A DNA stretch of 64,000 nt, taken from the NCBI GenBank assembly GCA_043801745.1, contig JAZDLR010000016.1:1535-65534 (forward strand). The letters run 5' to 3'. The notes beneath the pieces were generated by a model. That model was not told where the DNA came from. It worked only from the letters and a program-made list of their open reading frames with translations, and did not search any database. Positions 14,235-38,680 of this stretch are shown here, one piece after another (the first letter of the stretch is position 1; each line of letters opens with the position of its first letter). This DNA comes from Candidatus Komeilibacteria bacterium. Its GTDB lineage: Bacteria; Patescibacteriota; Patescibacteriia; UBA1558; 2-01-FULL-52-15. Made by a program: the position numbers and the translations under genes.

Positions 14235-14794
14235 AAAATATTTACTTTATAACCAGCAACAAATATAAATTTCAAATCGCTGAAGAGGGCTTCAAGGGTT
14301 CCGGCTTTAAACTGATTCAGAAAAATTTAGCCACACCGGAAATCCAAAGCACTGACCTGCGTGAAATTGCCGCCTATTCAGCCCAGTGGGCGGCTAACAA
14401 CTTAAAACATCCGGTCGTCCTAACCGATGCTGGCTGCTTTATTCCGGCCTTAAAAGGTTTCCCCGGGCCCTTTATCAAATACATTAACGGCTATTTAACG
14501 GCGCAAGATTATCTTAAGCTGATGGCCGGAAGAAAAAATCGAAAAATTATTTTTAAAGACTGTCTGGCCTACTGTGAGCCGGGCAAGAAACCCCTGTTAT
14601 TTTATTCCTCAGCCGCAGGCAGAATTTCAACCCGACCGGGTAAAAGAGGGCAAACTTCAATAAATGAAATTTTCATTCCCAAGGGATTCAATATGGTAGA
14701 ATCGGAAATACCCAGACAGCAAATGGTTATTTTTTGGAGTAAAAATAATTCTACCTACCGTTCATTGGTGAAATATTTAAGCAGCAGAATCTAA
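14231..14794 (+). CDS. non-canonical purine NTP pyrophosphatase (Ham1/RdgB/ITPase family)
   Basis: N-terminal [16 protein letters not shown] and [19 protein letters not shown] motifs; 4-nt overlap with upstream gene. Confidence 0.6.
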
Positions 14795-15724: not shown

Positions 15725-15839
15725 AATTATCAGTGACCCGCCAAGCTTAATACGAACAAGTAGAAAAATCAATTATTCTGGTTGACTGAATGGCTCCAGG
15801 GGGGTAAGCTTTAGCCGTTAATTTACTAACTTTTAACCT

Positions 15840-26099: not shown

Positions 26100-27146
26100 T
26101 TAACGGATTGTAGTTAATAATTCATCCAGCTTGGATAATAGCAGCTGATTGCTAAAAGTTAATGTCTTAACTACTTGCGTAAAACGGGACAGCTGTGAGT
26201 GCCAACTATTAAAAACGTCGGCGGTTAATTCTTTGGTCATTAGTCCCAAGCCCAAGGCCTCTATCATACGGGCATTAAGAATCTGTTCGTACTGCATCTT
26301 TATCGGCATTGAGAGTATGGGCTTGCCCAAATATAAACTTTCTGACATCAAAGTAAAACCGCCATTAATAACCACGCCGCGCGCTCCGGCCAAATCATTA
26401 ACCACGCCACTGGGGCTAAATTCTTTAAATTGAAAGCGCGGTCCAAAATCCCGCCGCGCTGCATTGTAAATAATGAACTTCTCTCCGGTCTGATATAAGA
26501 CCTCGCCAAATTGATCAAAACAATCAGCTGTCAGATAACAGAAAAAATAATCTCCCGCCTGAGGTTGTGCCGCGTTAACTTCCGGCCGTATTAGTGGTGG
26601 GAATAACCAACTTTTACCTTCCCGGCTCTTCTTCAGAGGTGGGAAAAAGAAGGTCGTGATTAGTGAATAGTCGCGGTTCGGCGCCACTGATTCAGTATAA
26701 ACCTTAGTCACGACATAATCCGGATAATCCTGGCGCTTAATCGGCAATTTAGTGTCAGAAATAATATGCTGGTTATCGATACAGATCAAAGGCAAATCAT
26801 AAAATGACGCCAACACACTGGCTGATGGCTCAAAATCAGTAATAATAACGGTCGGCCGAAATGATTTGACCACCTCACCCAGAGCGCGCAAATCTTGAGG
26901 TAAACTTTTAACTTTAGCTAAATTCTTGGTTATAGTCCGGCTCTTCTTAACCCGCGTGCCGCTGTATTCCAATTTTAAACCATTAACTTCCAAATGCTGA
27001 GGATATCGCTGCGCTAAGTATTTATAAGCCTTACCGCTGGAAACTATGAAAACATCGTGTCCGCACGCCAGTAAATGATCGATAACCACCGAGCTACGGA
27101 AAGCGTGACCATTGCCGTCGCCACAAATAGTATAGAGAATCTTCAT
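26100..27146 (-). CDS. glycosyltransferase (GT1/GT28 MGT-like family)
   Basis: MKILYTICGDGNGHAFRS N-terminal G-rich loop, C-terminal UDP-sugar-binding-like region; start at internal ATG 27146. Confidence 0.6.
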   Translation of the reverse strand: MKILYTICGDGNGHAFRSSVVIDHLLACGHDVFIVSSGKAYKYLAQRYPQHLEVNGLKLEYSGTRVKKSRTITKNLAKVKSLPQDLRALGEVVKSFRPTVIITDFEPSASVLASFYDLPLICIDNQHIISDTKLPIKRQDYPDYVVTKVYTESVAPNRDYSLITTFFFPPLKKSREGKSWLFPPLIRPEVNAAQPQAGDYFFCYLTADCFDQFGEVLYQTGEKFIIYNAARRDFGPRFQFKEFSPSGVVNDLAGARGVVINGGFTLMSESLYLGKPILSMPIKMQYEQILNARMIEALGLGLMTKELTADVFNSWHSQLSRFTQVVKTLTFSNQLLLSKLDELLTTIR

Positions 27147-27281
27147 CTTAGCTATTATACCTAAAGGCCAGAAAAAAAACTGCCCCACTGTCAACCCTAT
27201 TAGAAAATAGTTTTCTTACTGGATAAGACTCACAATATACAAACGGGTCATAATCTAGTATAATAATAGACATATTATTGT

Positions 27282-28145
27282 ATGTCTCTGATCACTAAAG
27301 CTGTTATCCCCGTTGCTGGATTCGGAACCCGTTTTTTACCAGCCACCAAAGCGCAACCGAAAGAGATGTTGCCCTTGGTTGATAAGCCAATTATTCAATA
27401 TATTGTGGAAGAAGCGGTGGCTTCGGGTATAAAAGAAATAATTTTTGTCACCAACCAGAATAAGCGGGCCATTGAAGATCATTTTGACCGTAATTTTGAG
27501 CTGGAATATAGGCTGCGGCAGGGCAATAAAAAAACCCTGCTCAAATCTATCTCCAACATGTTCAAAATGGCACAATTTGTTTATGTGCGGCAACCGACGC
27601 CACGGGGACTGGCCGATGCTATAGCTCAGGCACAACATTTGGTGGGCGACGACCCCTTTGCCGTGTTCTTGGCCGACGACATTATTGACGGGCCAATACC
27701 GGCTATGAAGCAAATGATAAAAGTTTTTGAGACCTATCATAAGCCCGTCATTGGCGTTACCCGCGTGCCGCGTTCACAAGTATCGCGCTATGGTATTATT
27801 GACGGCCAGTTATTAAAAACCGGCGTCTACCAAGTCAAAACAATAGTCGAAAAACCCACAGTTCAACAAGCGCCCTCCAACCTGGCTGTCAGCCGCGGTT
27901 ACATTTTTACGCCCGAAGTTTTCCGTTACATCCGCCAAACTAAAACTAAAGCCGGAGAAGAAATTTACCTGACTAACGCCTTAAATCAGCTGGCCAAACG
28001 GAATAATTTACTGGCCTGCGCTTATCAAGGACAATACTATGATTGCGGTAATAAATTAGATTATGTCAAAGCTATGGTGGCTTATGGCCTCAAACATCCG
28101 GAGATCAAAAAACCGCTGAAAACCTGGTTAAAACAACACAAATAA
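27282..28145 (+). CDS. galU: UTP--glucose-1-phosphate uridylyltransferase
   Basis: KAVIPVAGFGTRFLPATKAQPKEMLPLVDKP motif typical of GalU. Confidence 0.85.
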   Translation: MSLITKAVIPVAGFGTRFLPATKAQPKEMLPLVDKPIIQYIVEEAVASGIKEIIFVTNQNKRAIEDHFDRNFELEYRLRQGNKKTLLKSISNMFKMAQFVYVRQPTPRGLADAIAQAQHLVGDDPFAVFLADDIIDGPIPAMKQMIKVFETYHKPVIGVTRVPRSQVSRYGIIDGQLLKTGVYQVKTIVEKPTVQQAPSNLAVSRGYIFTPEVFRYIRQTKTKAGEEIYLTNALNQLAKRNNLLACAYQGQYYDCGNKLDYVKAMVAYGLKHPEIKKPLKTWLKQHK

Positions 28146-28146
28146 T

Positions 28147-29499
28147 ATGTTCAAAAATAAATTTCTCATCATTGGCTTAATACTAATTGTTGTTCTGGGA
28201 ATTGCCATTGCCACCATCACCAGCTTACAAAATAGGGTCAAGATCGCTTCTATTCAACCGGTAACTCTGGAGTATTGGGGCGTCTGGGAACAGCCGGAAG
28301 ACATCTCGCTGCTAACCCAGGCCTATCACCAGCGCCACCCCTTAATTACCATTAATTACCGCACCTTTACACCCGCTGAATATGCCAGTGAGTTGATTAA
28401 GGCTTGGGCTCAAGATAAGGGCCCGGATATTTTCATGGTTCCCAATACTTGGATTAGAGAATACAAAAAATACTCTCAGCCAATGCCCGCCACTATGTCA
28501 GTGCCGGTACAGTACGTTCAGGGAACCTTAAAAAAAGAAACCATAACCCGTTTACAAAATTATGCCGGTTATAACCCAAAAAATATTAAGGATTTATTTT
28601 TGGACGTAGTTTACCACGATGTGGTTGATAATAATGCTATCTATGGTCTACCCTACAGCGTTGATACCATGGCTCTTTTCTATAACCGCAGCCTACTACA
28701 AGCTAATGGCCTAGCCGAACCGGCCAAAACCTGGCAGGAGATTGTTCAACAGGCCGGTAAAATTTCCAAGCTTAATGCCGATAATACCTTTGCCCAGTCA
28801 ACTATCGCTTTGGGCGGAACAACCAATATACCCAATGCTTTTGACATTATTTCTCTGCTAATGAGTCAGGTGGGAGTAACTATGGGCAACGATACTAGCG
28901 TTTCTTTTGCTGAAGATAAAAAATCTTTGTCGGCTCTGGAATTCTATAGCAGTTTTGCCCGGCCCAATACCACAGTCTATTCCTGGAATAAAGACCAGGC
29001 CAGCGCCTTAGATGTTTTTACTTCCGGGCGGCTAGCGTATTTTCTGGGCTATACCTTTCACGCTCCGCTGATCAAGCGTACCAATCCTAACCTGGATTGG
29101 GACGTTGTACCGGTGCCACAGGCCGAAGGCGCTACCAGTCAAATTACTTACGCCAACTACTGGGTCAATGCTGTGGCCAAAAAATCTAAGCATGCCGGTT
29201 TTGCCTGGCAGGCGGTGTACGAGATGACTCAGGCTGATAATGTTAAGTCATTCTTAAGCCGCACCGGTAGAACTACCGCGCTCCGCAGCTTGGTCAGCGA
29301 ACAACAGAAAGATCCGGTCATTGGACCCTTTGCCCAAAACCTTTTGACAGCCCAGAGCTGGTATCGAGGCTATAATTTCCCCTTAGCTCAAGAATACTTT
29401 TTTGCTATGATTAATACCATTGTTACTGGCGGCAATCCGACGCAAGCCCTGCAGGCGGCAGAAACCAAAATTCAACAAACCTATCAAGCACCAAAATAA
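28147..29499 (+). CDS. extracellular solute-binding protein (ABC-type, family 1-like)
   Basis: N-terminal TM anchor and SBP_bac_1-like fold cues; translationally coupled to galU and to the downstream pilin-like gene. Confidence 0.55.
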   Translation: MFKNKFLIIGLILIVVLGIAIATITSLQNRVKIASIQPVTLEYWGVWEQPEDISLLTQAYHQRHPLITINYRTFTPAEYASELIKAWAQDKGPDIFMVPNTWIREYKKYSQPMPATMSVPVQYVQGTLKKETITRLQNYAGYNPKNIKDLFLDVVYHDVVDNNAIYGLPYSVDTMALFYNRSLLQANGLAEPAKTWQEIVQQAGKISKLNADNTFAQSTIALGGTTNIPNAFDIISLLMSQVGVTMGNDTSVSFAEDKKSLSALEFYSSFARPNTTVYSWNKDQASALDVFTSGRLAYFLGYTFHAPLIKRTNPNLDWDVVPVPQAEGATSQITYANYWVNAVAKKSKHAGFAWQAVYEMTQADNVKSFLSRTGRTTALRSLVSEQQKDPVIGPFAQNLLTAQSWYRGYNFPLAQEYFFAMINTIVTGGNPTQALQAAETKIQQTYQAPK

Positions 29500-29501
29500 C
29501 C

Positions 29502-30146
29502 ATGTTTAATTTTCTATTTTCCTGGCTGTTACCAACCGCCGCCAAGGCACAAGCGCTTGGCCTGATTGATAATATTCCCTGCGTGCAAAATGGCTATATA
29601 TTACCTAGCGGCCAATGGTCGCCCGGAACCTGCACCCTGGATAACATCACAGCCGGGGTCGGCTATTTAATAAATTATGGTGTAGCCATTAGCGGCGCCC
29701 TGGCTCTACTGATGTTTATTATTGGCGGTTGGTATTTGGTGGCCAGCGCCGGCCGCAAAGACTGGATAACTCGCGGCAAAAACATTCTGATCAACACCGT
29801 GTTTGCTATCTTCTTCATCTTAGGAGCCTGGCTGCTGGTCAGGGGAGTACTGGACATTGTTGGCTCTAATATTATTTTCCAAAGCGGCGAAACAACTACT
29901 ACCAGCTGTCAGGGTGAGGGCACCCAATGTAATGTCACCGGCAAATGCAAAGTGGTGAATAATATTGGCGAGTGTGTTAATCCTTGTGTCTATTTAGCCA
30001 CCGATTCAAAACCCTATTCTTGCCACAATAGCCTAGACGAATGTTTCCCCGCTGGAACCGCGTGCGTCAACTATCCCGATAACTGCCTGGAAACTCAAGG
30101 TCTGTGTCTAAGTAATCAATATTGCTGTTTCCCGTCTGCCAGATAA
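29502..30146 (+). CDS. pilin-like protein (T4SS TrbC/VirB2-type 2-TM core) fused to a C-terminal Cys-rich domain
   Basis: Signal peptide plus two TM helices as in the downstream pilins, then a 90-aa domain with 14 Cys. Confidence 0.5.
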   Translation: MFNFLFSWLLPTAAKAQALGLIDNIPCVQNGYILPSGQWSPGTCTLDNITAGVGYLINYGVAISGALALLMFIIGGWYLVASAGRKDWITRGKNILINTVFAIFFILGAWLLVRGVLDIVGSNIIFQSGETTTTSCQGEGTQCNVTGKCKVVNNIGECVNPCVYLATDSKPYSCHNSLDECFPAGTACVNYPDNCLETQGLCLSNQYCCFPSAR

Positions 30147-30185
30147 TTCCAACTAAATGACATCCATTAATATTGCAAAAAAAAT

Positions 30186-30524
30186 ATGAAAAAAATCTTT
30201 TTTACTCTACTAACCTTGTTGCTCTTACCGGCCGCTGCTAATGCTGTTGAAGAAATACCGCCCGTCGTCCTACCCAATCCTCTGGGCCAAGAAGTTAATA
30301 ATATACCACTGCTCGTCAACCATATCATTGTTGGCATTTTGGGTATTGTCGGCGCCGTTGCTTTATTGGCCTTTATCTGGGGCGGCCTGCTCTGGATGAC
30401 CTCGCTAGGCAATGCCGACCGCGTCAAGCAAGGCAAAGAAACACTGATTTATGCCACCATCGGATTATTGGTGATTTTTATTAGTTATTCGGTAATTAAT
30501 TTTATTTTTAAATCGTTGACCTAG
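30186..30524 (+). CDS. pilin-like protein (TrbC/VirB2-type; CPR T4SS-pilin family)
   Basis: Signal peptide (AANA|VEE), two TM helices, WMTSxGN motif. Confidence 0.6.
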   Translation: MKKIFFTLLTLLLLPAAANAVEEIPPVVLPNPLGQEVNNIPLLVNHIIVGILGIVGAVALLAFIWGGLLWMTSLGNADRVKQGKETLIYATIGLLVIFISYSVINFIFKSLT

Positions 30525-30596
30525 CAGTTGATTTTTTGGCGCAAAATATTTATACTATAAACAATTACTATCTAATCCTCGAAAGGAGGTGAGTAC

Positions 30597-30980
30597 ATGA
30601 AAAAAATCGTTTCCCTATTATCAATTTCAGCCGCTGCCCTTACGGGATTATTCCAAGGTGTTTTAGTCAAAGCCCAAGCGTTGACGCCCTCCCTGGATAT
30701 ACCGGAAAGTTTTGGCGGTCTGGGCTCACAAGATCTCAAGATTACTATTGCTAACATTGTTCAGATAGTCTTGGGTTTCTTGGGTATCTTAACTGTCTTG
30801 ATCATCCTCTTGGGCGGCTTCAAATGGATGACTTCTGGCGGTAATGAAGATAAGATTGATGAAGCCAAAAAGCTGATCAGTGCTGGTGTTGTCGGTCTGG
30901 TGATCGTTCTGGCCGCTTATGCTATTGCCACCTTCATTGTCGGCAATATCGGTAACGCCGTCACCGGTACCACTTCATAA
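30597..30980 (+). CDS. pilin-like protein (TrbC/VirB2-type), paralog
   Basis: GGAGG RBS; signal peptide plus 2 TM; KWMTSGGNEDKIDEAKK motif. Confidence 0.6.
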   Translation: MKKIVSLLSISAAALTGLFQGVLVKAQALTPSLDIPESFGGLGSQDLKITIANIVQIVLGFLGILTVLIILLGGFKWMTSGGNEDKIDEAKKLISAGVVGLVIVLAAYAIATFIVGNIGNAVTGTTS

Positions 30981-31021
30981 ATATAGTCTAGACTATAACC
31001 CATCATCATTGACTGATCTAA

Positions 31022-31489
31022 TTGATGATGGGTTGGGGCTTACACTATAACTTCATGACTTTCCGTCTATTCTTTTTTTCAACCATTGCCTTTCTTTTGG
31101 CATCACCGCTAAAAGCGGCTGCCAGTCCGGCAGGTGATGGGTTACAAAAGGCAGTTAAAAATTCGGGCCTTCCCACTGGTTCAATCGAATCTATGGCGGC
31201 CAATTTTATTATCGTTGTCTTAGGAATTGTCGGCGTGCTTTTTATGCTGCTGATTCTTTATGGCGGTTATGTTTGGATGATGGGCAGTAGAGCCGGCAAA
31301 GAAAAAGAAATTAATAATGCCAAGACTATTTTAACTAACGCCACGATTGGTCTGCTGCTTGTGCTGGCCGCTTATGCTATTACTTATTTCATTGTCCAAC
31401 AAATCAACTTTGCCACTACCGGCACTTTGGAACCGGACCTTGATACCGGTGATCCCGGCGTACCCTATGTTGATCCTGGACCTGCTTAA
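31022..31489 (+). CDS. pilin-like protein (TrbC/VirB2-type), paralog
   Basis: Signal peptide plus 2 TM; YVWMMGSRAGKEKEI motif; start may be a downstream ATG. Confidence 0.55.
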   Translation: MMMGWGLHYNFMTFRLFFFSTIAFLLASPLKAAASPAGDGLQKAVKNSGLPTGSIESMAANFIIVVLGIVGVLFMLLILYGGYVWMMGSRAGKEKEINNAKTILTNATIGLLLVLAAYAITYFIVQQINFATTGTLEPDLDTGDPGVPYVDPGPA

Positions 31490-31494
31490 TAATT

Positions 31495-31914
31495 ATGAAA
31501 AAATATTTTTATCTCATTCTAGCGTATCTTCTGGCGCCTCATATTTCTTGGGCCGCTACTAGTGCGTCATCTTCCGGCGGCAGCCCGCTAGACAGCGTCA
31601 AGGCAATCGGTACTCTGGTCTATGGCGGCAGCGGCACACCTTACGATATTAAGCGGGTTATCTCCGGTCTTATCCAGATTTTCTTAGGCTTAATTGGAAT
31701 TATCTTTCTACTGCTGATCATCTGGTCAGGTTTCCGTTGGATGACTAGCGGCGGCAATGAGAAAACCGTGGAAGAGGCTAAAAAAACCCTGCAGAATTCT
31801 GTTGTCGGTCTGATTATCGTTGTTATGGGCTACTCCATTGCTTACTGGATAATAGTCTGGCTGGGGCAGGCGACCACAGGCGCCGGTACGACCGGGGGTC
31901 CTGTGATCGAATAG
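31495..31914 (+). CDS. pilin-like protein (TrbC/VirB2-type), paralog
   Basis: Signal peptide plus 2 TM; FRWMTSGGNEKTVEEAKK motif. Confidence 0.6.
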   Translation: MKKYFYLILAYLLAPHISWAATSASSSGGSPLDSVKAIGTLVYGGSGTPYDIKRVISGLIQIFLGLIGIIFLLLIIWSGFRWMTSGGNEKTVEEAKKTLQNSVVGLIIVVMGYSIAYWIIVWLGQATTGAGTTGGPVIE

Positions 31915-31929
31915 TAGATCTGTAAGTTG

Positions 31930-31970
31930 AACGACCCGCCACTCAATTGAGTAGCGGGTCGTTTTTTTCT
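31930..31970 (+). terminator. intrinsic terminator after the pilin cluster (ACGACCCGC ... GCGGGUCGU plus U7)
   Basis: 9-bp GC-rich stem followed by a T7 tract. Confidence 0.7.
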
Positions 31971-31980
31971 TGGTTACCCC

Positions 31981-32499
31981 CTAACGATAGATCGGGATTC
32001 GTACTTGGGGCCCTTGGAAAGCATCTCGCCCCTTGTCATAGACCGGTAGACACTTTCGGTAGAGTCTCCTGCTCCCATCGGGGCACTCTATCAGAGCAGT
32101 GATGGGATAGCAGGCAAAGGCCTTGTTCGGCTTGACCCGAATCAGGGTGGGCAATGTCTGCTGCTGGGGACCCAGGCGGAACTTGGGCTCATGTACCCAC
32201 TTGTACTCCACCCAGGAGGTGTCGGCGCCGGATCGGGTCCGGCCGTGATGCGGCCGCTCCTCCTGCAGTTCAAACTCATAGGCCAGGCGGACCGACACCG
32301 AACAGCCACAATCGCGTGCCGGTAAACGCTCACCAGTATCCTGATCAACATCGGTTCTGTTCATGACGTTTACGGTCAACCAGTCAGCCCGGTTTTCCGT
32401 AATGTCGCTGGAACTGTGGATCAGGACACTGGTAGAACAGCCTGTCAGCAGCACCAGAGCCGCAAGACAGAAAAGCACAACTACTGGCCAGGATTTCAT
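31981..32499 (-). CDS. lipoprotein (hypothetical), compositionally foreign (high GC)
   Basis: Lipobox LLTGC; local GC content well above neighbours. Confidence 0.5.
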   Translation of the reverse strand: MKSWPVVVLFCLAALVLLTGCSTSVLIHSSSDITENRADWLTVNVMNRTDVDQDTGERLPARDCGCSVSVRLAYEFELQEERPHHGRTRSGADTSWVEYKWVHEPKFRLGPQQQTLPTLIRVKPNKAFACYPITALIECPDGSRRLYRKCLPVYDKGRDAFQGPQVRIPIYR

Positions 32500-32648
32500 A
32501 GCACACCCCTTTCAGAGGGTTTTGGGTTAAAAGCAAGGAAAGGACTAGCTGAATAGTGGAATATACCATATAATATAGCTGCTGTCAACCCCATTAAAAC
32601 ACCCGCCTTTTAATGGGCTAATAGCCCCCTTGTTTATAAACTGTTACA

Positions 32649-34463
32649 ATGTTTCTCGTGAAACATCTTAGCTCTTGGCTCAATTACCGACCCCAAATTT
32701 TCCTTATTGCTGCTGCCTTTGTATTTGCTGCTTTCTTTGGCGCAGCAGTACTAATAAAATACAATTTCTTTCTCTATAATGGCCTGGATCTGGCTATTTT
32801 TAATAATTCTTTATGGAACCTGATCCACGGAAATAATTTGTATAACGCCATACATCCACCGACCTACTGGGCCGATCATGTGTCACCCTGGCTTCTCGTA
32901 TTGGCTCTACCCTACGCCCTTTGGGCCGATCCTCAATTTCTTTTGCTGTCACAGATCGTGGTTCTGGCTGCCTGCGTCTGGCCACTTTATTTAATTGCCA
33001 GGAAATACTTATCACCGCGGTTAGCCTGCCTTGTTGCCGGCCTTTGGCTAGTTAATCCTCTGATTCATAACATTAGTTTATATGAATTTAGTTTGGTGCC
33101 TTGGTCAATATTTTTTTTGCTTTGGGCTTATTACTGGTATGACCAGAAACACTGGGCGCGTTTTATAATTTTTTCTTTACTGGCCATTACAACCCGCGAG
33201 GACGTGGCTGTAATGTTGGTGGGTTTTTCTATTCTGGCCGCTATTGATAAGTGCAGCTGGAAATGGTGGTTAACGCCAGGAATAATTGGCCTTGGTTGGT
33301 TTGCTGTGACGCAATATATTATCAATCAGGCGTCTCTTATTGGTGTCTCTAAATTTGTTAATTATTACAGCTGGCTCTGGCAACCCTCACTGGCCGAAAT
33401 TAGTCGACATTTTTTAAACCTCGGCAATGTGCAGATATTTCTCGGGCTGCTTTTACCTTTATTATTTTTACCCTTACTAAGACCGAAAACGTTAATCCTG
33501 ACACTTTTGCCTCTGGGTATTCTGCGCTTGGCCAGTGGCGACGACGGCGCCGCAGTTTTGCGGGCTCATTATGGCGGCTTCTTGCTTTGGCCCTTGTTTA
33601 TTGCCACCATTCTTGCTTTGGCCACCGACAATCAGCCGCGCCTGTTACAAAAATTGACCAATTACCGCCTATTAATAATTTTGTCACTGCTGACGGCTAG
33701 TATTTACGCCAGCCTAACTTATGGCAATATTCTTCCCCTGGTTAATTATCACTGGAACAGTTCTCGGGCCGAAGAATATCGGCTGGCCTGGCAGCAAATT
33801 CCCGAGACAGCACGAGTCGCCTCCACTTATTCTTTCTTGACGCCCCTATCTTCACGGCAGCAATTACAGTTACTGCCCTATGCTTATGCCGGCATGGGAC
33901 AATTTGCCTTAACCAACTACCAACTTGACCCCCAAACTGAATATTTACTAATTGATTGGCAGGAGTGGTTAATAGCACAAGTTCATTACCCCGGCCGTTA
34001 TCCGCAAAAAGTTTCTCTAGCAGACATGACTACCTGTTGGCAAAGCTGGCAAGCGGATTATCGACCAATCTGGCAGCAAGGCGCTATAACCATATTTCAA
34101 CGACATCCGAATAATATATTAATAGCCACGGTCAAACCAACAAGCAATCAGGCGGCAACTTTAAATATATTTAGCAGCGCTGGGCAGTCCGAAGCCTATC
34201 TGACTAGCCCGGCTACGACCAGTCTACAGGCCCTGCAGCTAAGCACAGCCAACTCTACCTACTATCTGCCACTAGCCTACGGTTTATGGACCTCCACTAG
34301 CAGTTCGGCTGAGATTACCATGCCGCTGAATGACCCGGCAGTAAAAAAAATTGACCTCGTGGCCTTTCGCTGGCCGCAGATAATGCTTAATAACATCAAT
34401 ACTCTAGAGTTGCGGTGGAAATCGCTGATCACCGAAGCTACTGCTGATGTAAACGATAAATAG
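32649..34463 (+). CDS. polytopic membrane protein with C-terminal soluble domain (GT-C/DUF2079-like, putative glycosyltransferase)
   Basis: About 10 TM helices plus a 200-aa C-terminal domain. Confidence 0.45.
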   Translation: MFLVKHLSSWLNYRPQIFLIAAAFVFAAFFGAAVLIKYNFFLYNGLDLAIFNNSLWNLIHGNNLYNAIHPPTYWADHVSPWLLVLALPYALWADPQFLLLSQIVVLAACVWPLYLIARKYLSPRLACLVAGLWLVNPLIHNISLYEFSLVPWSIFFLLWAYYWYDQKHWARFIIFSLLAITTREDVAVMLVGFSILAAIDKCSWKWWLTPGIIGLGWFAVTQYIINQASLIGVSKFVNYYSWLWQPSLAEISRHFLNLGNVQIFLGLLLPLLFLPLLRPKTLILTLLPLGILRLASGDDGAAVLRAHYGGFLLWPLFIATILALATDNQPRLLQKLTNYRLLIILSLLTASIYASLTYGNILPLVNYHWNSSRAEEYRLAWQQIPETARVASTYSFLTPLSSRQQLQLLPYAYAGMGQFALTNYQLDPQTEYLLIDWQEWLIAQVHYPGRYPQKVSLADMTTCWQSWQADYRPIWQQGAITIFQRHPNNILIATVKPTSNQAATLNIFSSAGQSEAYLTSPATTSLQALQLSTANSTYYLPLAYGLWTSTSSSAEITMPLNDPAVKKIDLVAFRWPQIMLNNINTLELRWKSLITEATADVNDK

Positions 34464-36051
34464 CGCCGGTGGAATTTTTTTTAATCAGCTGCAAATATGG
34501 CGCTTCATCCAGCCAGGAAAAAAATTCTGCCGGATTTTTTGTAGTGTAGTGAACAACAATCAACGAGATCCGGTTATCAACTAAAAATTTGATCTTATCC
34601 AGGCCTGTATTAGCCGAAAAAAATTCGTCTGCCTTCTGCCGCTTCTGTAAATAGTTGATTGTCTGATGCTGGTGTCCGATATAAATAGTCTGACCCGTAA
34701 AAGCCGGGATCAACAGGCCAATGGGTTCATCAAAAGGCAAGACTATTTGTTCCACGGGTTGTTGTTTTAAACTACCCAGTAGCTCCTTCGTTTCAGCCGA
34801 TAAATAAAAGCGGTCATTGGTTTGATAGTAGGACATTGCCCGGAGATATACTGTCTGACTATACCAGGGTCCAAAAGTCACGGCCATAATAACAAATAAC
34901 CAATAGATGATCTGCCAATAATAATTTTGAATCCGCCGAGCCAAAGCTAGGGCACCCAAACCAGCCACCAAACTAACAGGAATTAGCCAGCCGTTAGCCA
35001 GTCGGCGATTATAGTCCAGTGGCAAATAAACCATAATCCAGGTGACCCAAGTCCAGATGACCAATAGCCGCCACCACTCGTTGTCGCGCCATTTAGTCCA
35101 CCAGTGATAGGTGCCTATCACAGCTAGGGGAAATAACAGGCCCCAAGCTAATAAATAATTATAGGGCGGCGGCGAATAAACTAAATTTTGAGCTGACCAA
35201 CCGCGCAGCGCTGTTTCGCTCATAACCAAACCCCAGACTAAGCCCGCGCTGGCCGCACACCAGAACCAATAGATTGACAGCTTATATAAGTAGCGTCTGT
35301 CCTGCGTCTGCCACCAGCGCCATAATGACCACAACGCCGGTATCGTAGCTAAGATCCAAAAATCATAGGGGTGAACCATAATTAATAAAGCCGCCAAAGC
35401 CCCTACCAGACTCTCTGATTGCCAACTTATAGTCTGTCGTTGTTTTATCCACAGATAGAATACCAACAACAATAATATGTGCGACAGAATAAATAGGGGC
35501 GATTGCTGAGCATTGGCTTGAAGTGATAATTCGCCCATGTAAATATCTACCGGCTTAGTCGTTAACGGCGCAAAATCACTAGCTAAGATACTGGGTTGAA
35601 ATAAGGCCTTGGCCCACCCCCAACCTCCGGCGAATAACACAAACAGCCAGAGCCACAACCTCTCATTATACTTACTAGTCAGGCGCCTTAACCAAAAAAA
35701 CAAAACCACCATTGTTACCAGCACCAACAAAATCCTCCACCCATGATAGACGGGTATCACACCCAGAGAAAAAAGATTAGCCGTTTGACCGATTAGCCAC
35801 CAATGAGGACCAATCAGACTGCCCACCTGCAGCTCGCTAGTGTGAATATTTTTTTGTAGCAATTGGCCCAACCGGCCCTGCTCAATCATAGAGTAGTAAA
35901 CCAATTTATCCGCCGAAGCCGCTAGATTGATGCCCGTATAACTACTGCCGGACGGTGCCGCAAGGGCCGACCATAAATATAAAATATTAGTAAACACCAA
36001 AAAAATTACTATCAGACAAATGCTGGCCAGATAATACTGCTTTTTAGTCAT
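34438..36051 (-). CDS. polytopic membrane protein (GT-C-like, putative glycosyltransferase)
   Basis: >10 TM helices, Trp-rich; C-terminal soluble domain. Confidence 0.45.
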   Translation of the reverse strand: MTKKQYYLASICLIVIFLVFTNILYLWSALAAPSGSSYTGINLAASADKLVYYSMIEQGRLGQLLQKNIHTSELQVGSLIGPHWWLIGQTANLFSLGVIPVYHGWRILLVLVTMVVLFFWLRRLTSKYNERLWLWLFVLFAGGWGWAKALFQPSILASDFAPLTTKPVDIYMGELSLQANAQQSPLFILSHILLLLVFYLWIKQRQTISWQSESLVGALAALLIMVHPYDFWILATIPALWSLWRWWQTQDRRYLYKLSIYWFWCAASAGLVWGLVMSETALRGWSAQNLVYSPPPYNYLLAWGLLFPLAVIGTYHWWTKWRDNEWWRLLVIWTWVTWIMVYLPLDYNRRLANGWLIPVSLVAGLGALALARRIQNYYWQIIYWLFVIMAVTFGPWYSQTVYLRAMSYYQTNDRFYLSAETKELLGSLKQQPVEQIVLPFDEPIGLLIPAFTGQTIYIGHQHQTINYLQKRQKADEFFSANTGLDKIKFLVDNRISLIVVHYTTKNPAEFFSWLDEAPYLQLIKKNSTGAIYRLHQQ

Positions 36052-37615
36052 ATTTTTTTACAATCTCAAAAATTTTGGCAAATGGTCCTTGATAACGCAA
36101 AACGAAATTCTTGTCTTGACTTAATTGATCGATCAAGTCGTGATTGCCGTTTCCCACCAGGAGAAACCGTGAATGAAAAACTTTAGTAATAATCTGAGCA
36201 ATGTCTCCCGTAGCCTTACCCTCACTAACGCTTGACCACAAGGCCCATAATTCTGGGCTTTGATTATACATAAAAGTCGGGTCCAGGCCGACAATATAAT
36301 AATTGGACCGATTATAATAAAAAAGCGCCGGCCAATAATCCCAGTTAGAATTAAAAACAATTTCTCCCGGCCTACTATTCTCCTGCAGCCACTGTGACTC
36401 GGCAGCTAATTGGTTAACGGTAAAAGTTGTTTGGCTTTCATTGGCCCTAACAGCCATAACGTCTTTGAAAATTAAAAAAATGAAGGTCGGAATAATAAAT
36501 ACTATGACCAGAAAAGCATAAAATTTAATTAACCAACCAAATTTTCCCGGCAACGATAACTGCTGCTTGAGCCACCGGGCAGTTATCTGGGGCAAACAGC
36601 GGACCCAGAGTACCGCCGTGGCAATAAATAAGAGGGGGTCTGACAGCTCAACGTAGCGCCGCGATTTCCAGGTCAAGCCCACAGCAATAAACGACAAAAT
36701 AACTAAAAACCAGTCGTCGCGCCTTAACTGACGGAAGCGGTGCCAACCAAAAATAATAATTATTGCCAGAATCACCAGAGGATAGACGTGAAAATTGATC
36801 ACGTCTCTCCAGGATAGGGACAGCCATTCAGCACCTACTCCCACTGCCTGACCATAATTAATTACGCCGATTTGAACAATCTGCTGCCAATAAAAATATA
36901 AATTATGCGGCCAGTAGGGATTAAGTACAATCCCCGCCAAGCTGCCTGCCAGGGTCACTACTAGTAAACCAAATGAACGGGGACGGAATAACCGACAAAC
37001 TAATGATTTTTCGCGGCTGCTCCAGCCGGCAAGGACATCAACGCACCAATACAGGCCGACCGTCATGATACCAAAAATCCAGCCACCATAAAGCCAGACA
37101 TAAATAATTTGCAAAAAAAATAATAACCAGATTTTTTTCTTCAATAAAGCATAGAGAATCAAAACCACAACAATCAAGGAAACACTGTTGGCTTTAACTA
37201 AGGCCAGACGGAAAGCAAAAGTTGAGGAGAACAATAATAACGCTGTCCAAATTAACGCTAGCTGCGGCGCCAAGCGACGCAAGAACCAATAAAAAACCGT
37301 AAAAAAGCTGGCGCCAAATAAAATTGTACCCAGCTTAATGGCATAGAGTGGATTGCCCAGCTTCATTAAGGGAGCCAACAATAAGTGGTAGAGCAGGTGG
37401 TGATCAGTAAAATGTTGGCTTAAAGTTGTAAACTGCATCCAGGGCAAGCTACGCAATAAAACCCCTTCAGATAATAATTGTGCTATAGCTGCGTGATAAA
37501 AGACATCAGGATCACCAAAGGCCAGATGGAATTGCCAAAAAGCCAGAAATAAAAAAGTAACAAAAAAAACCAGCAGATACTCCATCTGTTGGTAATACTT
37601 TTGCCGGTCAGTCAT
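36044..37615 (-). CDS. polytopic membrane protein (GT-C-like, putative glycosyltransferase)
   Basis: >10 TM helices plus C-terminal soluble domain; 8-nt overlap with downstream paralog-like gene. Confidence 0.45.
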   Translation of the reverse strand: MTDRQKYYQQMEYLLVFFVTFLFLAFWQFHLAFGDPDVFYHAAIAQLLSEGVLLRSLPWMQFTTLSQHFTDHHLLYHLLLAPLMKLGNPLYAIKLGTILFGASFFTVFYWFLRRLAPQLALIWTALLLFSSTFAFRLALVKANSVSLIVVVLILYALLKKKIWLLFFLQIIYVWLYGGWIFGIMTVGLYWCVDVLAGWSSREKSLVCRLFRPRSFGLLVVTLAGSLAGIVLNPYWPHNLYFYWQQIVQIGVINYGQAVGVGAEWLSLSWRDVINFHVYPLVILAIIIIFGWHRFRQLRRDDWFLVILSFIAVGLTWKSRRYVELSDPLLFIATAVLWVRCLPQITARWLKQQLSLPGKFGWLIKFYAFLVIVFIIPTFIFLIFKDVMAVRANESQTTFTVNQLAAESQWLQENSRPGEIVFNSNWDYWPALFYYNRSNYYIVGLDPTFMYNQSPELWALWSSVSEGKATGDIAQIITKVFHSRFLLVGNGNHDLIDQLSQDKNFVLRYQGPFAKIFEIVKKYD

Positions 37616-37654: not shown

Positions 37655-38680
37655 TTATTTATCTCCTAATTCTTGCTTCAATAAATCTACCCAAGGTATC
37701 GCCGTGGCATCTAACTGCTCTTTACCGGCCAATTTAAGAGTTAGAGCCGAACTCCACCAGAGCATTTTCAGTCCCTGCTCTAAACCATTGCCAATAAACG
37801 ACTGCTTTAAAACCTTTATGCCTAAGCGTTGCAATATTTTTTCTGTCAGACGGTAACGTTTCTTGGTCCTGACATAATAATCTGATGATTCCAGCATTAC
37901 CGCTACCCATTTCTTACTCTGACTGCCTAGATTAGACAAACCTTCTAATAAATGGTGATTCAATTCAGGTAGAGCAAAGTAAGCAGCAAAAAGTTTAGCA
38001 GTCTCATTTAGTTGGTTACTCATAATATGGGCCGCACCAGTCAAATGTTCAGAGGCAATAATCAGACAATTTTTATTCAACATTTGCCGCGCTGGCGCCG
38101 TTAATAATCCCCGGCCGCCTCTCATTGTCATAGCAGCGCGCCGCAATTCTGCCAAGTCCAGCTGCAATATACCGGCGCTTTTCAAACTAAGGGCAAAGGC
38201 TGCCAGCATATAGCCCAAACCCAGGCGCGGCTGTCCGCTGGGGTTAAATTTAGTGGTAAAAATAAAGTGCGGTATTTTATCCGCTGCGGCCGCCTCAGCC
38301 AATTGGCCGCCACTGGTAATTACCAAAGCCGATAAACGTCTTTTTCTGGCTTCTTGAAAACAACCTAGGGCCTCTTCAGTCGCCCCGGAATAACTAGCGA
38401 TTATCACCAGACTATCGGCCGACGCCAGACCAGGCAACTGATAATTATTAACTATAATAACCGGCACCTTTAACTGGCGCCAATAAATATACCGCAGTAG
38501 GTCAGCGGCCAGAGCCGATCCACCCATACCACAAACAATGACCGAGTTATATTTCTTCCTAGCCAACAGTCTTTTCCTGGGCCAATGATCCAGAGTCCAG
38601 ATAATTTGCTCTGGCAACTGCTCGACCGAAGCAGCCACCAAAGAATTGTGCTGAGACCGTTGTTGTTTGAGGGACAACAT
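37655..38680 (-). CDS. bifunctional phosphoglucose/phosphomannose isomerase-like SIS-domain protein
   Basis: SIS motif VIVCGMGGSALAADLL; archaeal/bacterial PGI-PMI-like length and organisation. Confidence 0.65.
   Translation of the reverse strand: MLSLKQQRSQHNSLVAASVEQLPEQIIWTLDHWPRKRLLARKKYNSVIVCGMGGSALAADLLRYIYWRQLKVPVIIVNNYQLPGLASADSLVIIASYSGATEEALGCFQEARKRRLSALVITSGGQLAEAAAADKIPHFIFTTKFNPSGQPRLGLGYMLAAFALSLKSAGILQLDLAELRRAAMTMRGGRGLLTAPARQMLNKNCLIIASEHLTGAAHIMSNQLNETAKLFAAYFALPELNHHLLEGLSNLGSQSKKWVAVMLESSDYYVRTKKRYRLTEKILQRLGIKVLKQSFIGNGLEQGLKMLWWSSALTLKLAGKEQLDATAIPWVDLLKQELGDK

What the first reader, a model, noticed from the sequence alone, without database searches (positions are those of the whole stretch)
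27282..37615. Possible pilin-glycosylation system: galU-SBP-pilin operon flanked by multiple GT-C membrane glycosyltransferase-like genes
galU (UDP-glucose synthesis), a solute-binding protein and the Cys-rich pilin are translationally coupled with 1-2 nt gaps, and the pilin array follows. Three large GT-C-type polytopic membrane proteins (32649..34463, 34438..36051, 36044..37615) and a PGI/PMI sugar isomerase come next. Another block of three GT-C-like proteins plus UDP-xylose synthase lies at 8.5-15.8 kb, and a GT1 glycosyltransferase is divergent from galU. GT-C enzymes of the PglL/PilO/YfhO type glycosylate pilins and other surface proteins from lipid-linked or nucleotide sugars. The co-localisation suggests a dedicated surface-filament glycosylation module, a system poorly described for CPR bacteria.
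Basis: inference. Interest (0 to 1): 0.6.

Follow-up and report, generated by a model that had tools for sequence, protein, structure and literature searches.

The report
Pilin operon flanked by glycosyltransferase genes
In an ultrasmall (Patescibacteria) bacterium, an operon for a UDP-glucose enzyme, an orphan sugar-binding protein and five conjugation-type (VirB2-like) pilins lies next to three membrane glycosyltransferases. Two of these belong to undescribed families that resemble the enzymes which attach sugars to proteins, so pilin glycosylation is plausible but unproven.

Summary
Corrections follow. The "pilins" are VirB2/TrbC-like T4SS_pilin (PF18895) proteins, not type IV pilus pilins. 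Two of the three membrane proteins are on the minus strand, in a PGI-f523-f537 operon.

All three are GT-C enzymes, not transporters. One is DUF2079. The other two have no Pfam or NCBIfam match, but confident AlphaFold models match only GT-C structures. The 523-aa protein is closest to oligosaccharyltransferases (yeast Stt3, TM-score 0.70). The 537-aa family shares the OST C-terminal domain at sequence level. Neither is a canonical OST, and none is PglL/PilO-type.

This MalE-type SBP has no transporter, and a pilin gene follows it directly in 65 of 76 related genomes. galU is linked in only about a quarter. GT-C genes neighbour the pilins often but not always, and part of that synteny also includes housekeeping genes (YebC, RuvC).

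Verdict: a real, conserved surface locus. Extracytoplasmic glycosylation is well supported; pilins as the acceptor remain inference (about 0.3-0.4).

The parts
26100..27194 (-). GT-B fold glycosyltransferase (Glyco_trans_1_3; MJ1255/VC2487-like), divergent from galU across an 87-nt spacer
   Evidence: PF13528 at 3.2e-89. TIGR00661 at 189.4 bits, just under its cut-off of 195.9. The same divergent pairing with galU occurs in L001 and L007-L009.
27282..28145 (+). galU, UTP-glucose-1-phosphate uridylyltransferase; first gene of the plus-strand operon
   Evidence: TIGR01099 at 352.2 bits, above its cut-off of 326.8. A promoter-like site lies at 27236-27264 (sites in the region are not above chance overall).
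28147..29499 (+). Orphan membrane-anchored sugar/oligosaccharide solute-binding protein (CUT1/MalE type); no ABC permease or ATPase partner nearby
   Evidence: phmmer against PDB hits only sugar SBPs: 4r9f 1.5e-13, 3uor 6.4e-13, 4qrz 1.3e-11. Orthologues carry PF01547/PF13416. Its start lies 1 nt after the galU stop. No BPD_transp-type permease was found in the window or in L001/L002/L006.
29502..30146 (+). VirB2-like pilin-domain protein with a C-terminal Cys-rich extension (13 Cys in about 80 aa); its start is 2 nt after the SBP stop
   Evidence: PF18895 at 1.6e-4, 22.1 bits, below the gathering score of 26.6. Orthologues hit PF18895. Alignment A4 keeps the pilin core while the C-terminal extension is variable. 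Junction sequence.
30186..30524 (+). VirB2/TrbC-like pilin paralogue 1 (signal peptide plus two TM helices)
   Evidence: PF18895 at 2.9e-10; TrbC PF04956 at 0.002.
30597..30980 (+). VirB2-like pilin paralogue 2, with a Thr/Gly-rich C-terminal tail
   Evidence: PF18895 at 3.1e-9. Tail sequence.
31022..31489 (+). VirB2-like pilin paralogue 3 (TTG start as listed; the true start may be a later ATG), with a Thr/Pro/Asp-rich tail
   Evidence: PF18895 at 1.5e-7. Tail sequence.
31495..31914 (+). VirB2-like pilin paralogue 4, Ser/Thr/Gly-rich at both exposed ends
   Evidence: PF18895 at 7.3e-10; TrbC at 3.6e-4. Sequence.
31981..32499 (-). Small lipoprotein (lipobox LLTGC), conserved in position but divergent in sequence, between the pilin array and DUF2079
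   Evidence: No Pfam match. Positional counterparts with a lipobox occur in L001 and L002. The best promoter-like site of the region lies at 32588-32560, matching 11 of 12 positions.
32649..34463 (+). DUF2079 polytopic membrane protein, a GT-C superfamily member; its 3' end overlaps the 3' end of the 537-aa gene by 26 nt (convergent)
   Evidence: PF09852 at 1.3e-42, 146.9 bits. Remote homology to both Pfam-less families: hhalign 69.7% (E 4.2e-5) and 73.4% (E 3e-5). Conserved Asp47 follows TM1.
34438..36051 (-). 'f537': a GT-C glycosyltransferase of a large family without a Pfam model, carrying an OST-type C-terminal globular domain but no WWDYG motif
36044..37615 (-). 'f523': a GT-C glycosyltransferase of a Patescibacteria-wide family without a Pfam model; structurally closest to STT3/AglB/PglB and DPY19; invariant DPD after TM1; its stop overlaps the f537 start
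37655..38680 (-). Bifunctional-type phosphoglucose/phosphomannose isomerase; first gene of the minus-strand PGI-f523-f537 operon
   Evidence: PF10432 at 2.5e-19. TIGR02128 at 5.6e-45, below its cut-off. PGI lies directly upstream of f523 in 38 of 60 informative metagenome loci. A promoter-like site lies at 38718-38690.
8582..14234 (+). Second block of large membrane proteins: AftA_N-like GT-C (8582-10273), an unclassified 521-aa membrane protein (10252-11817), tRNA-Pro, and a YfhO-family GT-C (11997-14234)
   Evidence: AftA_N at 2.1e-12; YfhO at 1.7e-25. The 521-aa ORF has no Pfam or NCBIfam match and no relation to f537/f523.
14777..15772 (-). NAD-dependent NDP-sugar dehydratase/epimerase (extended SDR); UDP-xylose synthase identity not established
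   Evidence: PF16363 and PF01370. The best NCBIfam match is dTDP-glucose 4,6-dehydratase at 150.9 bits, below its cut-off of 365.

Best explanation
**What it is.** This is a conserved cell-surface locus of a Komeilibacteria-type Patescibacterium, made of two linked parts.

**Part 1: the plus-strand operon.** galU is followed by an orphan, membrane-anchored MalE-type sugar-binding protein. Next comes a VirB2-like pilin with a Cys-rich extension, then four VirB2-like pilin paralogues.

**Part 2: an island of GT-C glycosyltransferases.** It holds DUF2079 and, in an operon with PGI/PMI, two Pfam-less enzymes (f523, f537). These have the 13-TM GT-C core plus an oligosaccharyltransferase-type C-terminal domain.

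**Proposed mechanism**
1. PGI/PMI and GalU supply activated hexose (shown by homology).
2. A GT2 enzyme, absent from this window but present beside the same genes in relatives, loads the hexose onto polyprenyl phosphate (inferred).
3. The lipid-linked sugar is flipped to the outer face of the membrane (inferred).
4. The GT-C enzymes transfer it there to exported acceptors (fold shown, activity inferred).
5. The most likely acceptors are surface proteins. The prime candidates are the Ser/Thr/Gly-rich exposed termini of the co-encoded VirB2-like pilins, or the SBP (inferred).

The SBP is most simply a glycan-binding partner or adhesin of the pilin structure.
For: **Gene identities and coupling:**

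**GT-C fold of f537 and f523**
- The models are confident (pLDDT 86.9 and 92.7).
- Two independent comparison methods return only GT-C structures at the top.
- f523 ranks OST > DPY19 > ArnT > AftA > ALG > PMT by Foldseek. On own knowledge of these families, the OSTs and DPY19 at the top of that ranking are protein-modifying enzymes.
- The C-terminal domain of f537 is homologous to the OST C-terminal domain at sequence level.
- An invariant acidic motif follows TM1.

**Relatives link these enzymes to lipid-phosphate-sugar chemistry**
- Short GT2 genes and further GT-C genes (GT87-like, YfhO-like) fill the gap between f523 and f537 in relatives.
- In Falkowbacteria-type loci a GT2 sits beside the f523 homologue.

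**Linkage to the pilins persists through rearrangements**
- Komeilibacteria-type layout.
- Falkowbacteria-type layout, with GT2 and the f523 homologue divergent from a six-pilin array, in 23 loci.
- L024, with f523 convergent on the end of the array.
- L083, with f523 directly upstream of galU-SBP-pilins.

**Other support**
- galU is co-operonic with the SBP and pilins, and PGI with pilins in L029.
- Exposed pilin segments are Ser/Thr/Gly-enriched: Thr 9-10.5% against 3.8-6.5% in the SBP and cytosolic proteins.
Against: - There is no experimental or sequence evidence for any acceptor.
- Sequon density equals the compositional expectation, and Ser/Thr-rich tails are common on surface proteins in general.
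- The window holds no GT2, flippase or priming phosphoglycosyltransferase.
- The Komeilibacteria-type synteny includes YebC and RuvC just as strongly, so it may be inherited gene order.
- The Falkowbacteria-type GT2/GT-C pair sits among unrelated genes (HTH, a methyltransferase, a YraN-like gene) and is missing from some otherwise similar loci.
- Distant f537 relatives lie in GT-C/GT2 islands with no pilins.
- Six GT-C-like genes in 64 kb look more like stepwise glycan assembly than a single protein modification.
- f523 lacks the second acidic (DxD/DNE) motif and a true WWDYG motif.
- Full-length profile comparison with STT3 is inconclusive (24.6%).
Confidence: 0.4

Rival explanations
1. **Envelope glycan pathway, unrelated to the pilins.** The GT-C enzymes (with GalU, PGI/PMI and the GT-B enzyme) build or decorate a general envelope glycoconjugate. 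This could be a lipoglycan, a wall polysaccharide or an S-layer glycan, assembled stepwise on the outer face as in mycobacterial LM/LAM. The SBP-fold protein could act like mycobacterial LpqW, handing glycolipid intermediates to the GT-C enzymes. The pilin operon would then be only a neighbour by inherited gene order.
For: - There are six large membrane proteins in 64 kb. Five are shown to be GT-C, from at least five different families, and the sixth is unclassified.
- A variable island of extra GT-C, GT2 and methyltransferase genes lies between f523 and f537 in relatives, like a polysaccharide locus.
- Distant f537 relatives lie in GT-C/GT2 arrays without pilins.
- Synteny extends to the housekeeping genes YebC and RuvC.
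- galU paired with a divergent GT-B transferase resembles the GtaB/UgtP glycolipid-anchor route (own knowledge; gene identities).
- Some pilin arrays have no GT-C gene in range.
Against: - The pilin operon sits between sugar-activation genes and GT-C genes, and galU is translationally coupled to the SBP and pilins.
- f523-superfamily genes stay next to the pilins in at least three different arrangements.
- f523 is structurally closest to OSTs and DPY19, which on own knowledge modify proteins, and carries the OST-type C-terminal domain.
Confidence: 0.3
2. **Sugar-capture or adhesion apparatus, with no glycosylation link.** The SBP and VirB2-like proteins form a device that binds host or environmental oligosaccharides, or host surface glycans, at a T4SS-type filament. 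galU, PGI and the nearby glycogen genes are simply carbohydrate-metabolism neighbours. The GT-C genes are irrelevant to it.
For: - SBP followed by a pilin is the most conserved pair in the locus: 65 of 76 loci, median gap 9 nt.
- This SBP subfamily never has a permease beside it in the annotated loci.
- PGI is co-operonic with pilins in L029, where no GT-C is in range.
- The window is rich in hexose and glucan genes: two GlgA, a GalT-like gene and an APH-type kinase.
- A review speculates that Patescibacterial VirB2 pili act as conduits for uptake from the host (PMC12857230).
- The survey of Patescibacterial T4SS found no PrgB-type adhesin.
Against: - No VirB4, VirB6 or VirD4 gene lies in the window.
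- It gives no role for the recurrent f523-type GT-C/GT2 neighbours.
- No transport path for a captured sugar is evident.
Confidence: 0.2
3. **The PF18895 proteins are not filament subunits.** They would instead be small membrane subunits working with the GT-C enzymes, for example as lipid-linked-sugar flippase-like components analogous to GtrA or ArnE/F.
For: They are 110-155 aa with hydrophobic segments, and they sit where three-component (GT2-flippase-GT-C) systems place a small membrane protein. This is inference only.
Against: - They match VirB2/TrbC-type profiles.
- They have cleavable signal peptides and two TM helices, not four.
- They occur as 4-16 divergent paralogues, which fits pilin arrays reported as essential in Saccharibacteria (PMC12102498, PMC12857230).
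Confidence: 0.05

Closest known systems
Oligosaccharyltransferase catalytic subunits STT3 / AglB / PglB (CAZy GT66)
   Same: - For f537 the domain match is supported by sequence.
- An acidic motif follows TM1, a conserved Glu lies in a late external loop, and Arg lies at the start of a late TM helix.
   Different: - No member matches Pfam STT3 (0 of 39 and 0 of 46).
- WWDYG is replaced by S-[DN]-W-D-x-W-P in f523 and is absent in f537.
- Where STT3 has its second metal-binding acidic motif, f523 has K-A-N-S. This placement is my reading of the alignments; the alignment ends just before the motif.
- Full-length profile comparison is inconclusive.
- No lipid-linked-oligosaccharide assembly genes are nearby.
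- Partner GT2 genes in relatives suggest polyprenyl-monophosphate monosaccharide donors.
Polyprenyl-phosphate-sugar-dependent protein glycosyltransferases (DPY19 C-mannosyltransferase, PMT O-mannosyltransferases) and three-component GtrB/GtrA/GtrC or CsbB/YfhO-type systems
   Same: - Relatives pair the f523 homologue with a short GT2, the typical donor-synthase plus GT-C logic.
- A YfhO-family gene is present in the window.
   Different: - There are no Pfam matches to PMT, PMT_2 or Dpy19, apart from one stray hit among 46 sequences.
- No GtrA-type flippase or GT2 lies in this window.
- The acceptors of those systems (O-antigen, teichoic acids, Trp or Ser/Thr of specific proteins) are not indicated here.
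Pilin O-oligosaccharyltransferases PglL / PilO (TfpO) of type IV pili
   Same: Only the idea is shared: a membrane enzyme encoded near pilin genes that transfers lipid-linked glycan to exposed Ser/Thr of a pilin.
   Different: - Those enzymes carry the Wzy_C (O-antigen ligase) domain and act on type IV pilins.
- No protein here matches Wzy_C.
- The pilins here are VirB2/TrbC-like.
VirB2-like pilin arrays of Patescibacteria (Southlakia epibionticum, Nanosynbacter lyticus TM7x; survey in PMC12102498)
   Same: They are tandem arrays of sequence-divergent PF18895/VirB2-like genes on the chromosome of a CPR bacterium, not far from dnaA.
   Different: - Here the array is not next to virB4, virB6 or virD4.
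- It is headed by a sugar SBP and galU and flanked by GT-C genes.
- The survey paper does not contain 'solute' or 'binding protein'.
LpqW, an SBP-fold lipoprotein of mycobacterial LM/LAM biosynthesis (own knowledge)
   Same: It is an orphan substrate-binding-protein scaffold with no transporter, working beside GT-C glycosyltransferases.
   Different: It belongs to a different SBP family. No sequence relation was tested here. LpqW is not linked to pilin genes.

Membership tests
GT-C glycosyltransferase superfamily (f523, f537, DUF2079) | Polytopic membrane core of about 11-13 TM helices with the GT-C fold | tested here: met
   - f537 and f523 models have pLDDT 86.9 and 92.7.
- DUF2079 is matched by PF09852 at 1.3e-42 and is remotely homologous to both families.
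GT-C glycosyltransferase superfamily (f523, f537, DUF2079) | Conserved acidic residue or modified DxD motif in the first extracytoplasmic loop | tested here: met
   - f523: D35 and D37 invariant and P36 in at least 90% of 39 sequences.
- f537: D48 invariant in 9 sequences and at least 90% conserved in 46.
- DUF2079: D47 at least 90% conserved in 27.
GT-C glycosyltransferase superfamily (f523, f537, DUF2079) | Uses a polyprenyl-phosphate-linked sugar donor; transferase activity | not testable with these tools
   There is only contextual support: GT2 genes lie beside homologues in relatives. None lies in this window.
Oligosaccharyltransferase STT3/AglB/PglB (GT66) | Match to the family sequence model (Pfam STT3 PF02516) or a significant full-length profile-profile match | tested here: not met
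   - 0 of 39 f523-family and 0 of 46 f537-family members hit STT3.
- hhalign of A2 against an STT3A profile gives 24.6%. The STT3 profile had low diversity, so this is weak negative evidence.
Oligosaccharyltransferase STT3/AglB/PglB (GT66) | C-terminal globular domain of the OST type | tested here: met
   - f537-family profile against PDB: the top 3 hits are OST C-terminal regions.
- Domain-level hhalign: 94.6%, E 6.8e-8.
Oligosaccharyltransferase STT3/AglB/PglB (GT66) | WWDYG motif in the C-terminal domain | tested here: not met
   - f523 has N-W-D-Y-W here; the family consensus is S-D-W-D-x-W-P, with W425 invariant and D426 in at least 90% of sequences. A weak alignment places this on the W-D of WWD.
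- f537 has no Trp-Trp-Asp at the aligned position.
Oligosaccharyltransferase STT3/AglB/PglB (GT66) | Lipid-linked oligosaccharide assembly genes (priming phosphoglycosyltransferase, flippase) and N-x-S/T acceptor sequons | tested here: not met
   - No such genes lie in the window.
- Sequon density in pilin exposed segments is 12 per 1000 aa, equal to the compositional expectation.
PglL / PilO (TfpO) pilin O-oligosaccharyltransferases | Wzy_C (O-antigen ligase) domain; a type IV pilin as substrate | tested here: not met
   - None of the six membrane proteins has a Wzy_C hit.
- The pilins are PF18895/TrbC-like, not type IV pilins.
VirB2/TrbC-like T4SS pilins (PF18895) | Match to the family model above the gathering score; signal peptide plus two TM helices | tested here: met
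   - Four ORFs score 31.8-40.5 bits against a gathering score of 26.6. Their sequences show A-x-A-type cleavage sites and two hydrophobic helices.
- The Cys-rich protein scores only 22.1 bits. Its membership is inferred from orthologues.
VirB2/TrbC-like T4SS pilins (PF18895) | Encoded with a T4SS assembly machine (VirB4, VirB6 etc.) and polymerised into a filament | tested here: not met
   - No T4SS machinery gene lies in the 64-kb window.
- The rest of the genome could not be read.
- Filament formation is not testable here.
ABC-importer solute-binding protein (CUT1/MalE type) | SBP fold or sequence family | tested here: met
   - PDB hits are only sugar SBPs, down to 1.5e-13.
- Orthologues carry PF01547/PF13416.
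- The window protein itself has no Pfam hit at 0.01.
ABC-importer solute-binding protein (CUT1/MalE type) | Encoded with cognate permease and ATPase genes | tested here: not met
   - None lies in the window or in the annotated related loci.
- A pilin gene follows instead, in 65 of 76 loci.

The most novel reading that the evidence does not exclude
f523 (with its Falkowbacteria homologue) and f537 would be previously unrecognised, Patescibacteria-wide offshoots of the oligosaccharyltransferase lineage. They would use polyprenyl-phosphate hexose to glycosylate VirB2-like pilins. That would be the first glycosylated conjugation-type pilus and the first defined protein-glycosylation machinery in CPR bacteria. 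The dedicated transporter-less sugar-binding protein would act as the lectin-like adhesin or assembly partner of that filament.
Probability: 0.2. Interest if true: 0.8.

Novelty: new variant of a known kind. Interest (0 to 1): 0.6.

Why it matters
**The open question.** VirB2-like pilin arrays are reported as essential in the one genetically tractable Patescibacterium, yet their function is unknown (PMC12857230, PMC12102498).

**What this locus adds**
- These arrays have a dedicated sugar-binding protein without a transporter in hundreds of species-level genomes.
- They are often neighboured by OST-like GT-C enzymes with no family model, which current annotation leaves as 'hypothetical protein'.

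**Experiments this makes possible**
- SBP glycan binding.
- Pilin mass shifts on co-expression with f523 and a GT2.
- Mutation of D35, D37, E263, W425 and D426 in f523.

**Wider relevance.** The work also provides two large families (f537: 7,308 cluster representatives) for a CAZy- or Pfam-style description. If the protein-acceptor reading is right, it would extend OST-related protein glycosylation to a very large bacterial radiation. A recent Saccharibacteria study calls glycosylation there 'unexplored' (PMC11623550).

Tried and rejected
**Searches that led nowhere**
1. Pfam and NCBIfam on f537 and f523: no match. Scans of 39 and 46 family members gave only stray hits (DUF6541 in 3 of 46, Dpy19 in 1 of 46).
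2. Single-sequence and A2-profile searches against PDB sequences: nothing.
3. The afdb50 fold library was not available.
4. Attempts to read beyond the window through four edge genes found nothing on record. Whether the genome has a GT2, a virB4 or a sugar ABC permease elsewhere stays unknown.
5. Literature searches found no paper linking Patescibacteria to OST or GT-C protein glycosylation, and none mentioning DUF2079.

**Tests that were inconclusive or negative**
6. Full-length hhalign of the f523 family against human STT3A gave 20.8%, and against a metazoan STT3A profile 24.6%. The third homologue search returned only STT3A sequences at 73% identity or more, nearly all at 82% or more, so the profile was poor.
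7. N-x-S/T enrichment in pilins: none beyond composition.
8. The 521-aa ORF at 10252-11817 shows no relation to f537 or f523.
9. Promoter-like and terminator-like sites are not more frequent than in shuffles: 33 against 26.4±4.4, and 18 against 15.8±4.4. Individual sites are therefore only suggestive.

**Readings rejected**
- Transporters: the fold says GT-C.
- PglL/PilO-type O-OTases: no Wzy_C domain.
- Type IV pilus pilins: the proteins match PF18895/TrbC instead.
- A specific 'UDP-xylose synthase' call for 14777-15772: the enzyme is a generic SDR dehydratase/epimerase.

Full report
**Source and layout**

The 537-aa protein is identical to a 'hypothetical protein' of a Candidatus Komeilibacteria MAG, on a contig of 156,579 bp. 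The window is ordinary chromosome. It carries dnaA, dnaN, yidC, tyrS, a class A PBP and three or four tRNAs.

Within the finding the ORFs are exactly where stated.

On the plus strand:
- galU (27282-28145)
- a 450-aa SBP (28147-29499)
- a 214-aa Cys-rich protein (29502-30146)
- four small ORFs (30186-31914)
- DUF2079 (32649-34463), which follows a minus-strand lipoprotein gene (31981-32499)

On the minus strand, PGI/PMI (37655-38680), a 523-aa protein (36044-37615) and a 537-aa protein (34438-36051) form an operon. The 523-aa stop overlaps the 537-aa start (ATGACTAA). The 1-nt and 2-nt gaps after galU and after the SBP gene are confirmed.

**What the plus-strand genes are**

- galU passes its equivalog cut-off.
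- The SBP has no Pfam hit at 0.01. Against PDB sequences it hits only sugar and oligosaccharide ABC binding proteins, the best at 1.5e-13. Its orthologues carry SBP_bac_1 or SBP_bac_8.
- No permease or ATPase of a sugar ABC importer lies in the window or in the annotated related loci.
- The four small proteins are PF18895 T4SS_pilin, with weaker TrbC/VirB2 hits. Each has a signal peptide, two hydrophobic helices and short exposed ends.
- The Cys-rich protein has the same core, but only sub-threshold by Pfam. Orthologues and alignment A4 support the assignment. It also has a C-terminal extension with 13 cysteines.

These are therefore conjugation-type VirB2-like pilins, not type IV pilus pilins. 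Arrays of such genes are already described in Patescibacteria: 441 arrays of 2-11 genes (PMC12102498). They are reported as essential in Southlakia (PMC12857230). No VirB4, VirB6 or VirD4 gene lies in this window.

**The membrane proteins**

DUF2079 is matched strongly. The 537-aa ('f537') and 523-aa ('f523') proteins have no Pfam, NCBIfam or PDB sequence match.

*f537*
- It has few close homologues, but a profile finds 7,308 cluster representatives, 3,179 of them at 1e-30.
- Its AlphaFold model has pLDDT 86.9.

*f523*
- It has hundreds of homologues in Komeili-, Buchanan- and Parcubacteria, and none has a Pfam domain.
- Its AlphaFold model has pLDDT 92.7.
- By Foldseek it is closest to OST catalytic subunits: 13 of the top 15 hits, with yeast Stt3 at E 5.6e-10 and TM 0.70. 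DPY19, ArnT, AftA, ALG9/12 and PMT follow.

*Relationships among the three*
- f523 and f537 are remote paralogues (hhalign 96.5%).
- DUF2079 is more distantly related to both (about 70%).
- All three keep an acidic residue or motif right after TM1. In f523, D35 and D37 are invariant and P36 is conserved in at least 90% of sequences.

**How OST-like are they?**

*For*
- A profile of 46 diverse f537-family sequences has OST C-terminal regions as its three best PDB sequence hits: fungal STT3 at 6.8e-4, the yeast Stt3 C-domain at 0.015 and AfAglB-S2 at 0.024.
- Domain-level hhalign against metazoan STT3A gives 94.6%, E 6.8e-8.
- The f523 segment 'QWLQENSRPGEIVFNSNWD' aligns weakly to STT3A 'YWLRHNTPEDAKVM-SWWD' (17.8%). 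This places the f523 W425-D426 pair on the W-D of WWDYG.

*Against*
- No family member hits Pfam STT3.
- Full-length profile comparison is inconclusive. The STT3 profile I could build was poorly diverse. The recalled human STT3A query was verified as identical to 6s7o_A.
- f537 lacks WWD.
- f523 appears to have K-A-N-S where STT3 has its second acidic motif. This is my reading, because the alignment stops just before that motif.

I therefore treat them as new GT-C families related to the OST lineage, not as OSTs.

**Conservation, anchored on the SBP**

I scanned one genome per species with the SBP alignment. At least 532 stretches encode relatives, and the best 80 were fetched. They come from Falkow-, Uhr-, Magasanik- and Parcubacteria and unnamed Patescibacteria. 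I scored them with custom HMMs.

- A pilin-domain ORF starts within 300 nt of the SBP stop in 65 of 76 informative loci (median gap 9 nt). At a looser threshold this holds in nearly all loci.
- galU is directly upstream in 22 of 80.
- Of 49 loci with at least 9 kb downstream, 41 have three or more pilins, 26 have one of the GT-C families and 21 have a GT2.

Several architectures occur:
- The Komeilibacteria type described above.
- A Falkowbacteria type: SBP, pilin, four unrelated genes, then GT2 and a ~530-aa GT-C divergent from a six-pilin array. That GT-C is a homologue of f523 (hhalign 98.9%, E 1.2e-17).
- Arrays with no GT-C in range.
- Single variants such as L024 (f523 convergent on the array end), L083 (YebC, f523, galU, SBP, 16 pilins) and L029 (PGI-pilin operon, no GT-C).

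**Conservation, anchored on f523**

A metagenome scan with the f523 alignment gave 80 loci at 31-45% identity.

- PGI is directly upstream in 38 of 60 informative loci.
- Of 34 loci with at least 9 kb downstream, 30 show f537, DUF2079 or pilins, and 19 reach the pilins (73 nt to 9.1 kb away).
- Orientations are always the same.
- Between f523 and f537, relatives carry a variable island with a methyltransferase, a GT87-like protein, two short GT2 enzymes, YfhO-like proteins and unknown membrane proteins.

There is a caveat. YebC and RuvC are as conserved on the other side of PGI (36 and 33 of 45 loci). The Komeilibacteria-type synteny alone therefore cannot prove function.

**Acceptor clues**

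- Exposed pilin segments (430 pilins) are enriched in Thr, Ser and Gly compared with the SBP and cytosolic proteins.
- N-x-S/T density (12 per 1000 aa) equals what composition predicts.
- No donor-side GT2, flippase or priming enzyme is in the window.
- Distant f537 relatives lie in GT-C/GT2 islands without pilins.

**Interpretation**

Shown:
- the gene identities;
- the GT-C folds;
- the OST-type C-terminal domain;
- the near-universal SBP-pilin coupling;
- the frequent but not universal neighbourhood of f523-superfamily GT-C genes, with GT2, and pilin arrays in several arrangements.

Inferred:
- a polyprenyl-phosphate hexose donor made from UDP-glucose or GDP-mannose;
- transfer on the outer face of the membrane;
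- the acceptor.

My probability estimates:
- about 0.85 that these enzymes carry out extracytoplasmic glycosylation of something;
- about 0.55 that the acceptor is protein;
- about 0.3-0.4 that it includes the co-encoded pilins or the SBP.

The main rival is a general envelope glycan or lipoglycan pathway that merely neighbours the pilin operon (0.3). A second is that the SBP and pilins form a sugar-capture or adhesion device with metabolic neighbours (0.2). These readings are not fully exclusive.

**Comparison with known systems and novelty**

- Closest in structure: STT3/AglB/PglB and DPY19.
- Closest in logic: GT2-plus-GT-C multi-component glycosylation systems.
- Closest in the pilin part: the Patescibacterial VirB2-like arrays.
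- It is not PglL/PilO-like.

I found no paper linking Patescibacteria to OST or GT-C protein glycosylation, none mentioning DUF2079, and no mention of an SBP in the T4SS survey. Pilin glycosylation in Saccharibacteria has so far only been predicted, for type IV pilins (PMC11623550).

I rate the finding a new variant of known kinds, with interest 0.6.

Noticed in passing
window 28147-30146, and L007-L086: This SBP subfamily appears to be dedicated to VirB2-like pilins. A pilin ORF follows the SBP stop within 300 nt in 65 of 76 species-level loci (median gap 9 nt), and no ABC permease lies beside it in the annotated loci. The coupling is more conserved than the galU or GT-C linkage, and the Patescibacteria T4SS survey does not mention it.
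   Followed up: partly
L010, L019, L023, L045 and about 20 other loci (e.g. L019:13855-16234): In Falkowbacteria-type loci a short GT2 and a ~530-aa homologue of f523 (motif YLDPDLGWHLK) lie divergent from a six-gene pilin array. They are separated from the SBP and first pilin by HTH_25/Glucodextran_B, methyltransferase, small TM and YraN-like genes.
   Followed up: partly
L029:9033-17918 and L083:6544-12557: Two variant layouts were seen. In L029, PGI, the large pilin and four pilins form one minus-strand operon with no GT-C in range. In L083 the order is YebC, f523, galU, SBP, then 16 pilin paralogues.
   Followed up: partly
window 31981-32499 (-): A small lipoprotein gene lies between the pilin array and DUF2079. 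It is conserved in position (lipobox L-[ST]-G-C) but not in sequence, and the best promoter-like site of the region precedes it (11 of 12 positions).
   Followed up: partly
window 40068-46014: A hexose and alpha-glucan cluster lies here: two GlgA paralogues (446 and 475 bits on TIGR02095), an APH-family kinase (41577-42641), a PHP phosphoesterase and a GalT-like uridylyltransferase. With galU and PGI, the whole neighbourhood is carbohydrate-centred.
   Followed up: partly
window 18033-23324 (-): This is a MacB-type efflux or export operon: a MarR regulator, a HlyD-like adaptor, an ABC ATPase and two MacB_PCD/FtsX permeases.
   Followed up: no
window 23825-24763 (-): A Fic/DOC family protein with a C-terminal HTH_17 domain lies next to a SAM methyltransferase (24904-25659).
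   Followed up: no
window 6185-8413 (+): A 742-aa protein combines DUF6829 (4e-71) and DUF1152. It sits just upstream of the first GT-C block.
   Followed up: no
window 45978-46574 (-): A Lit-family lipoprotein intramolecular transacylase homologue is present. It hints at lyso-form lipoproteins in this monoderm.
   Followed up: no
window 51551-51651 (-): Rfam calls a 101-nt tRNA here (51.7 bits) that ARAGORN did not report. It may have a long variable arm or an intron.
   Followed up: no
window 52000-53530: This stretch has raised G+C (0.51 against about 0.44) and overlapping ORFs on both strands. The one ORF scanned against Pfam (52030-52428) had no match, and the stretch has no Rfam match.
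   Followed up: no
window 56000-61000: dnaN (57679-58788) and dnaA (59038-60402) lie here, and cumulative GC skew reaches its minimum at about 56-58 kb, so the replication origin is probably nearby. The pilin locus is about 27 kb from dnaA, in line with the reported origin-proximal placement of T4SS genes in some CPR.
   Followed up: no
L007-L086 record titles: Many TPA MAG records that carry this Patescibacteria-type locus are titled 'uncultured Gammaproteobacteria bacterium'. This is probably a placeholder or a mislabel.
   Followed up: no
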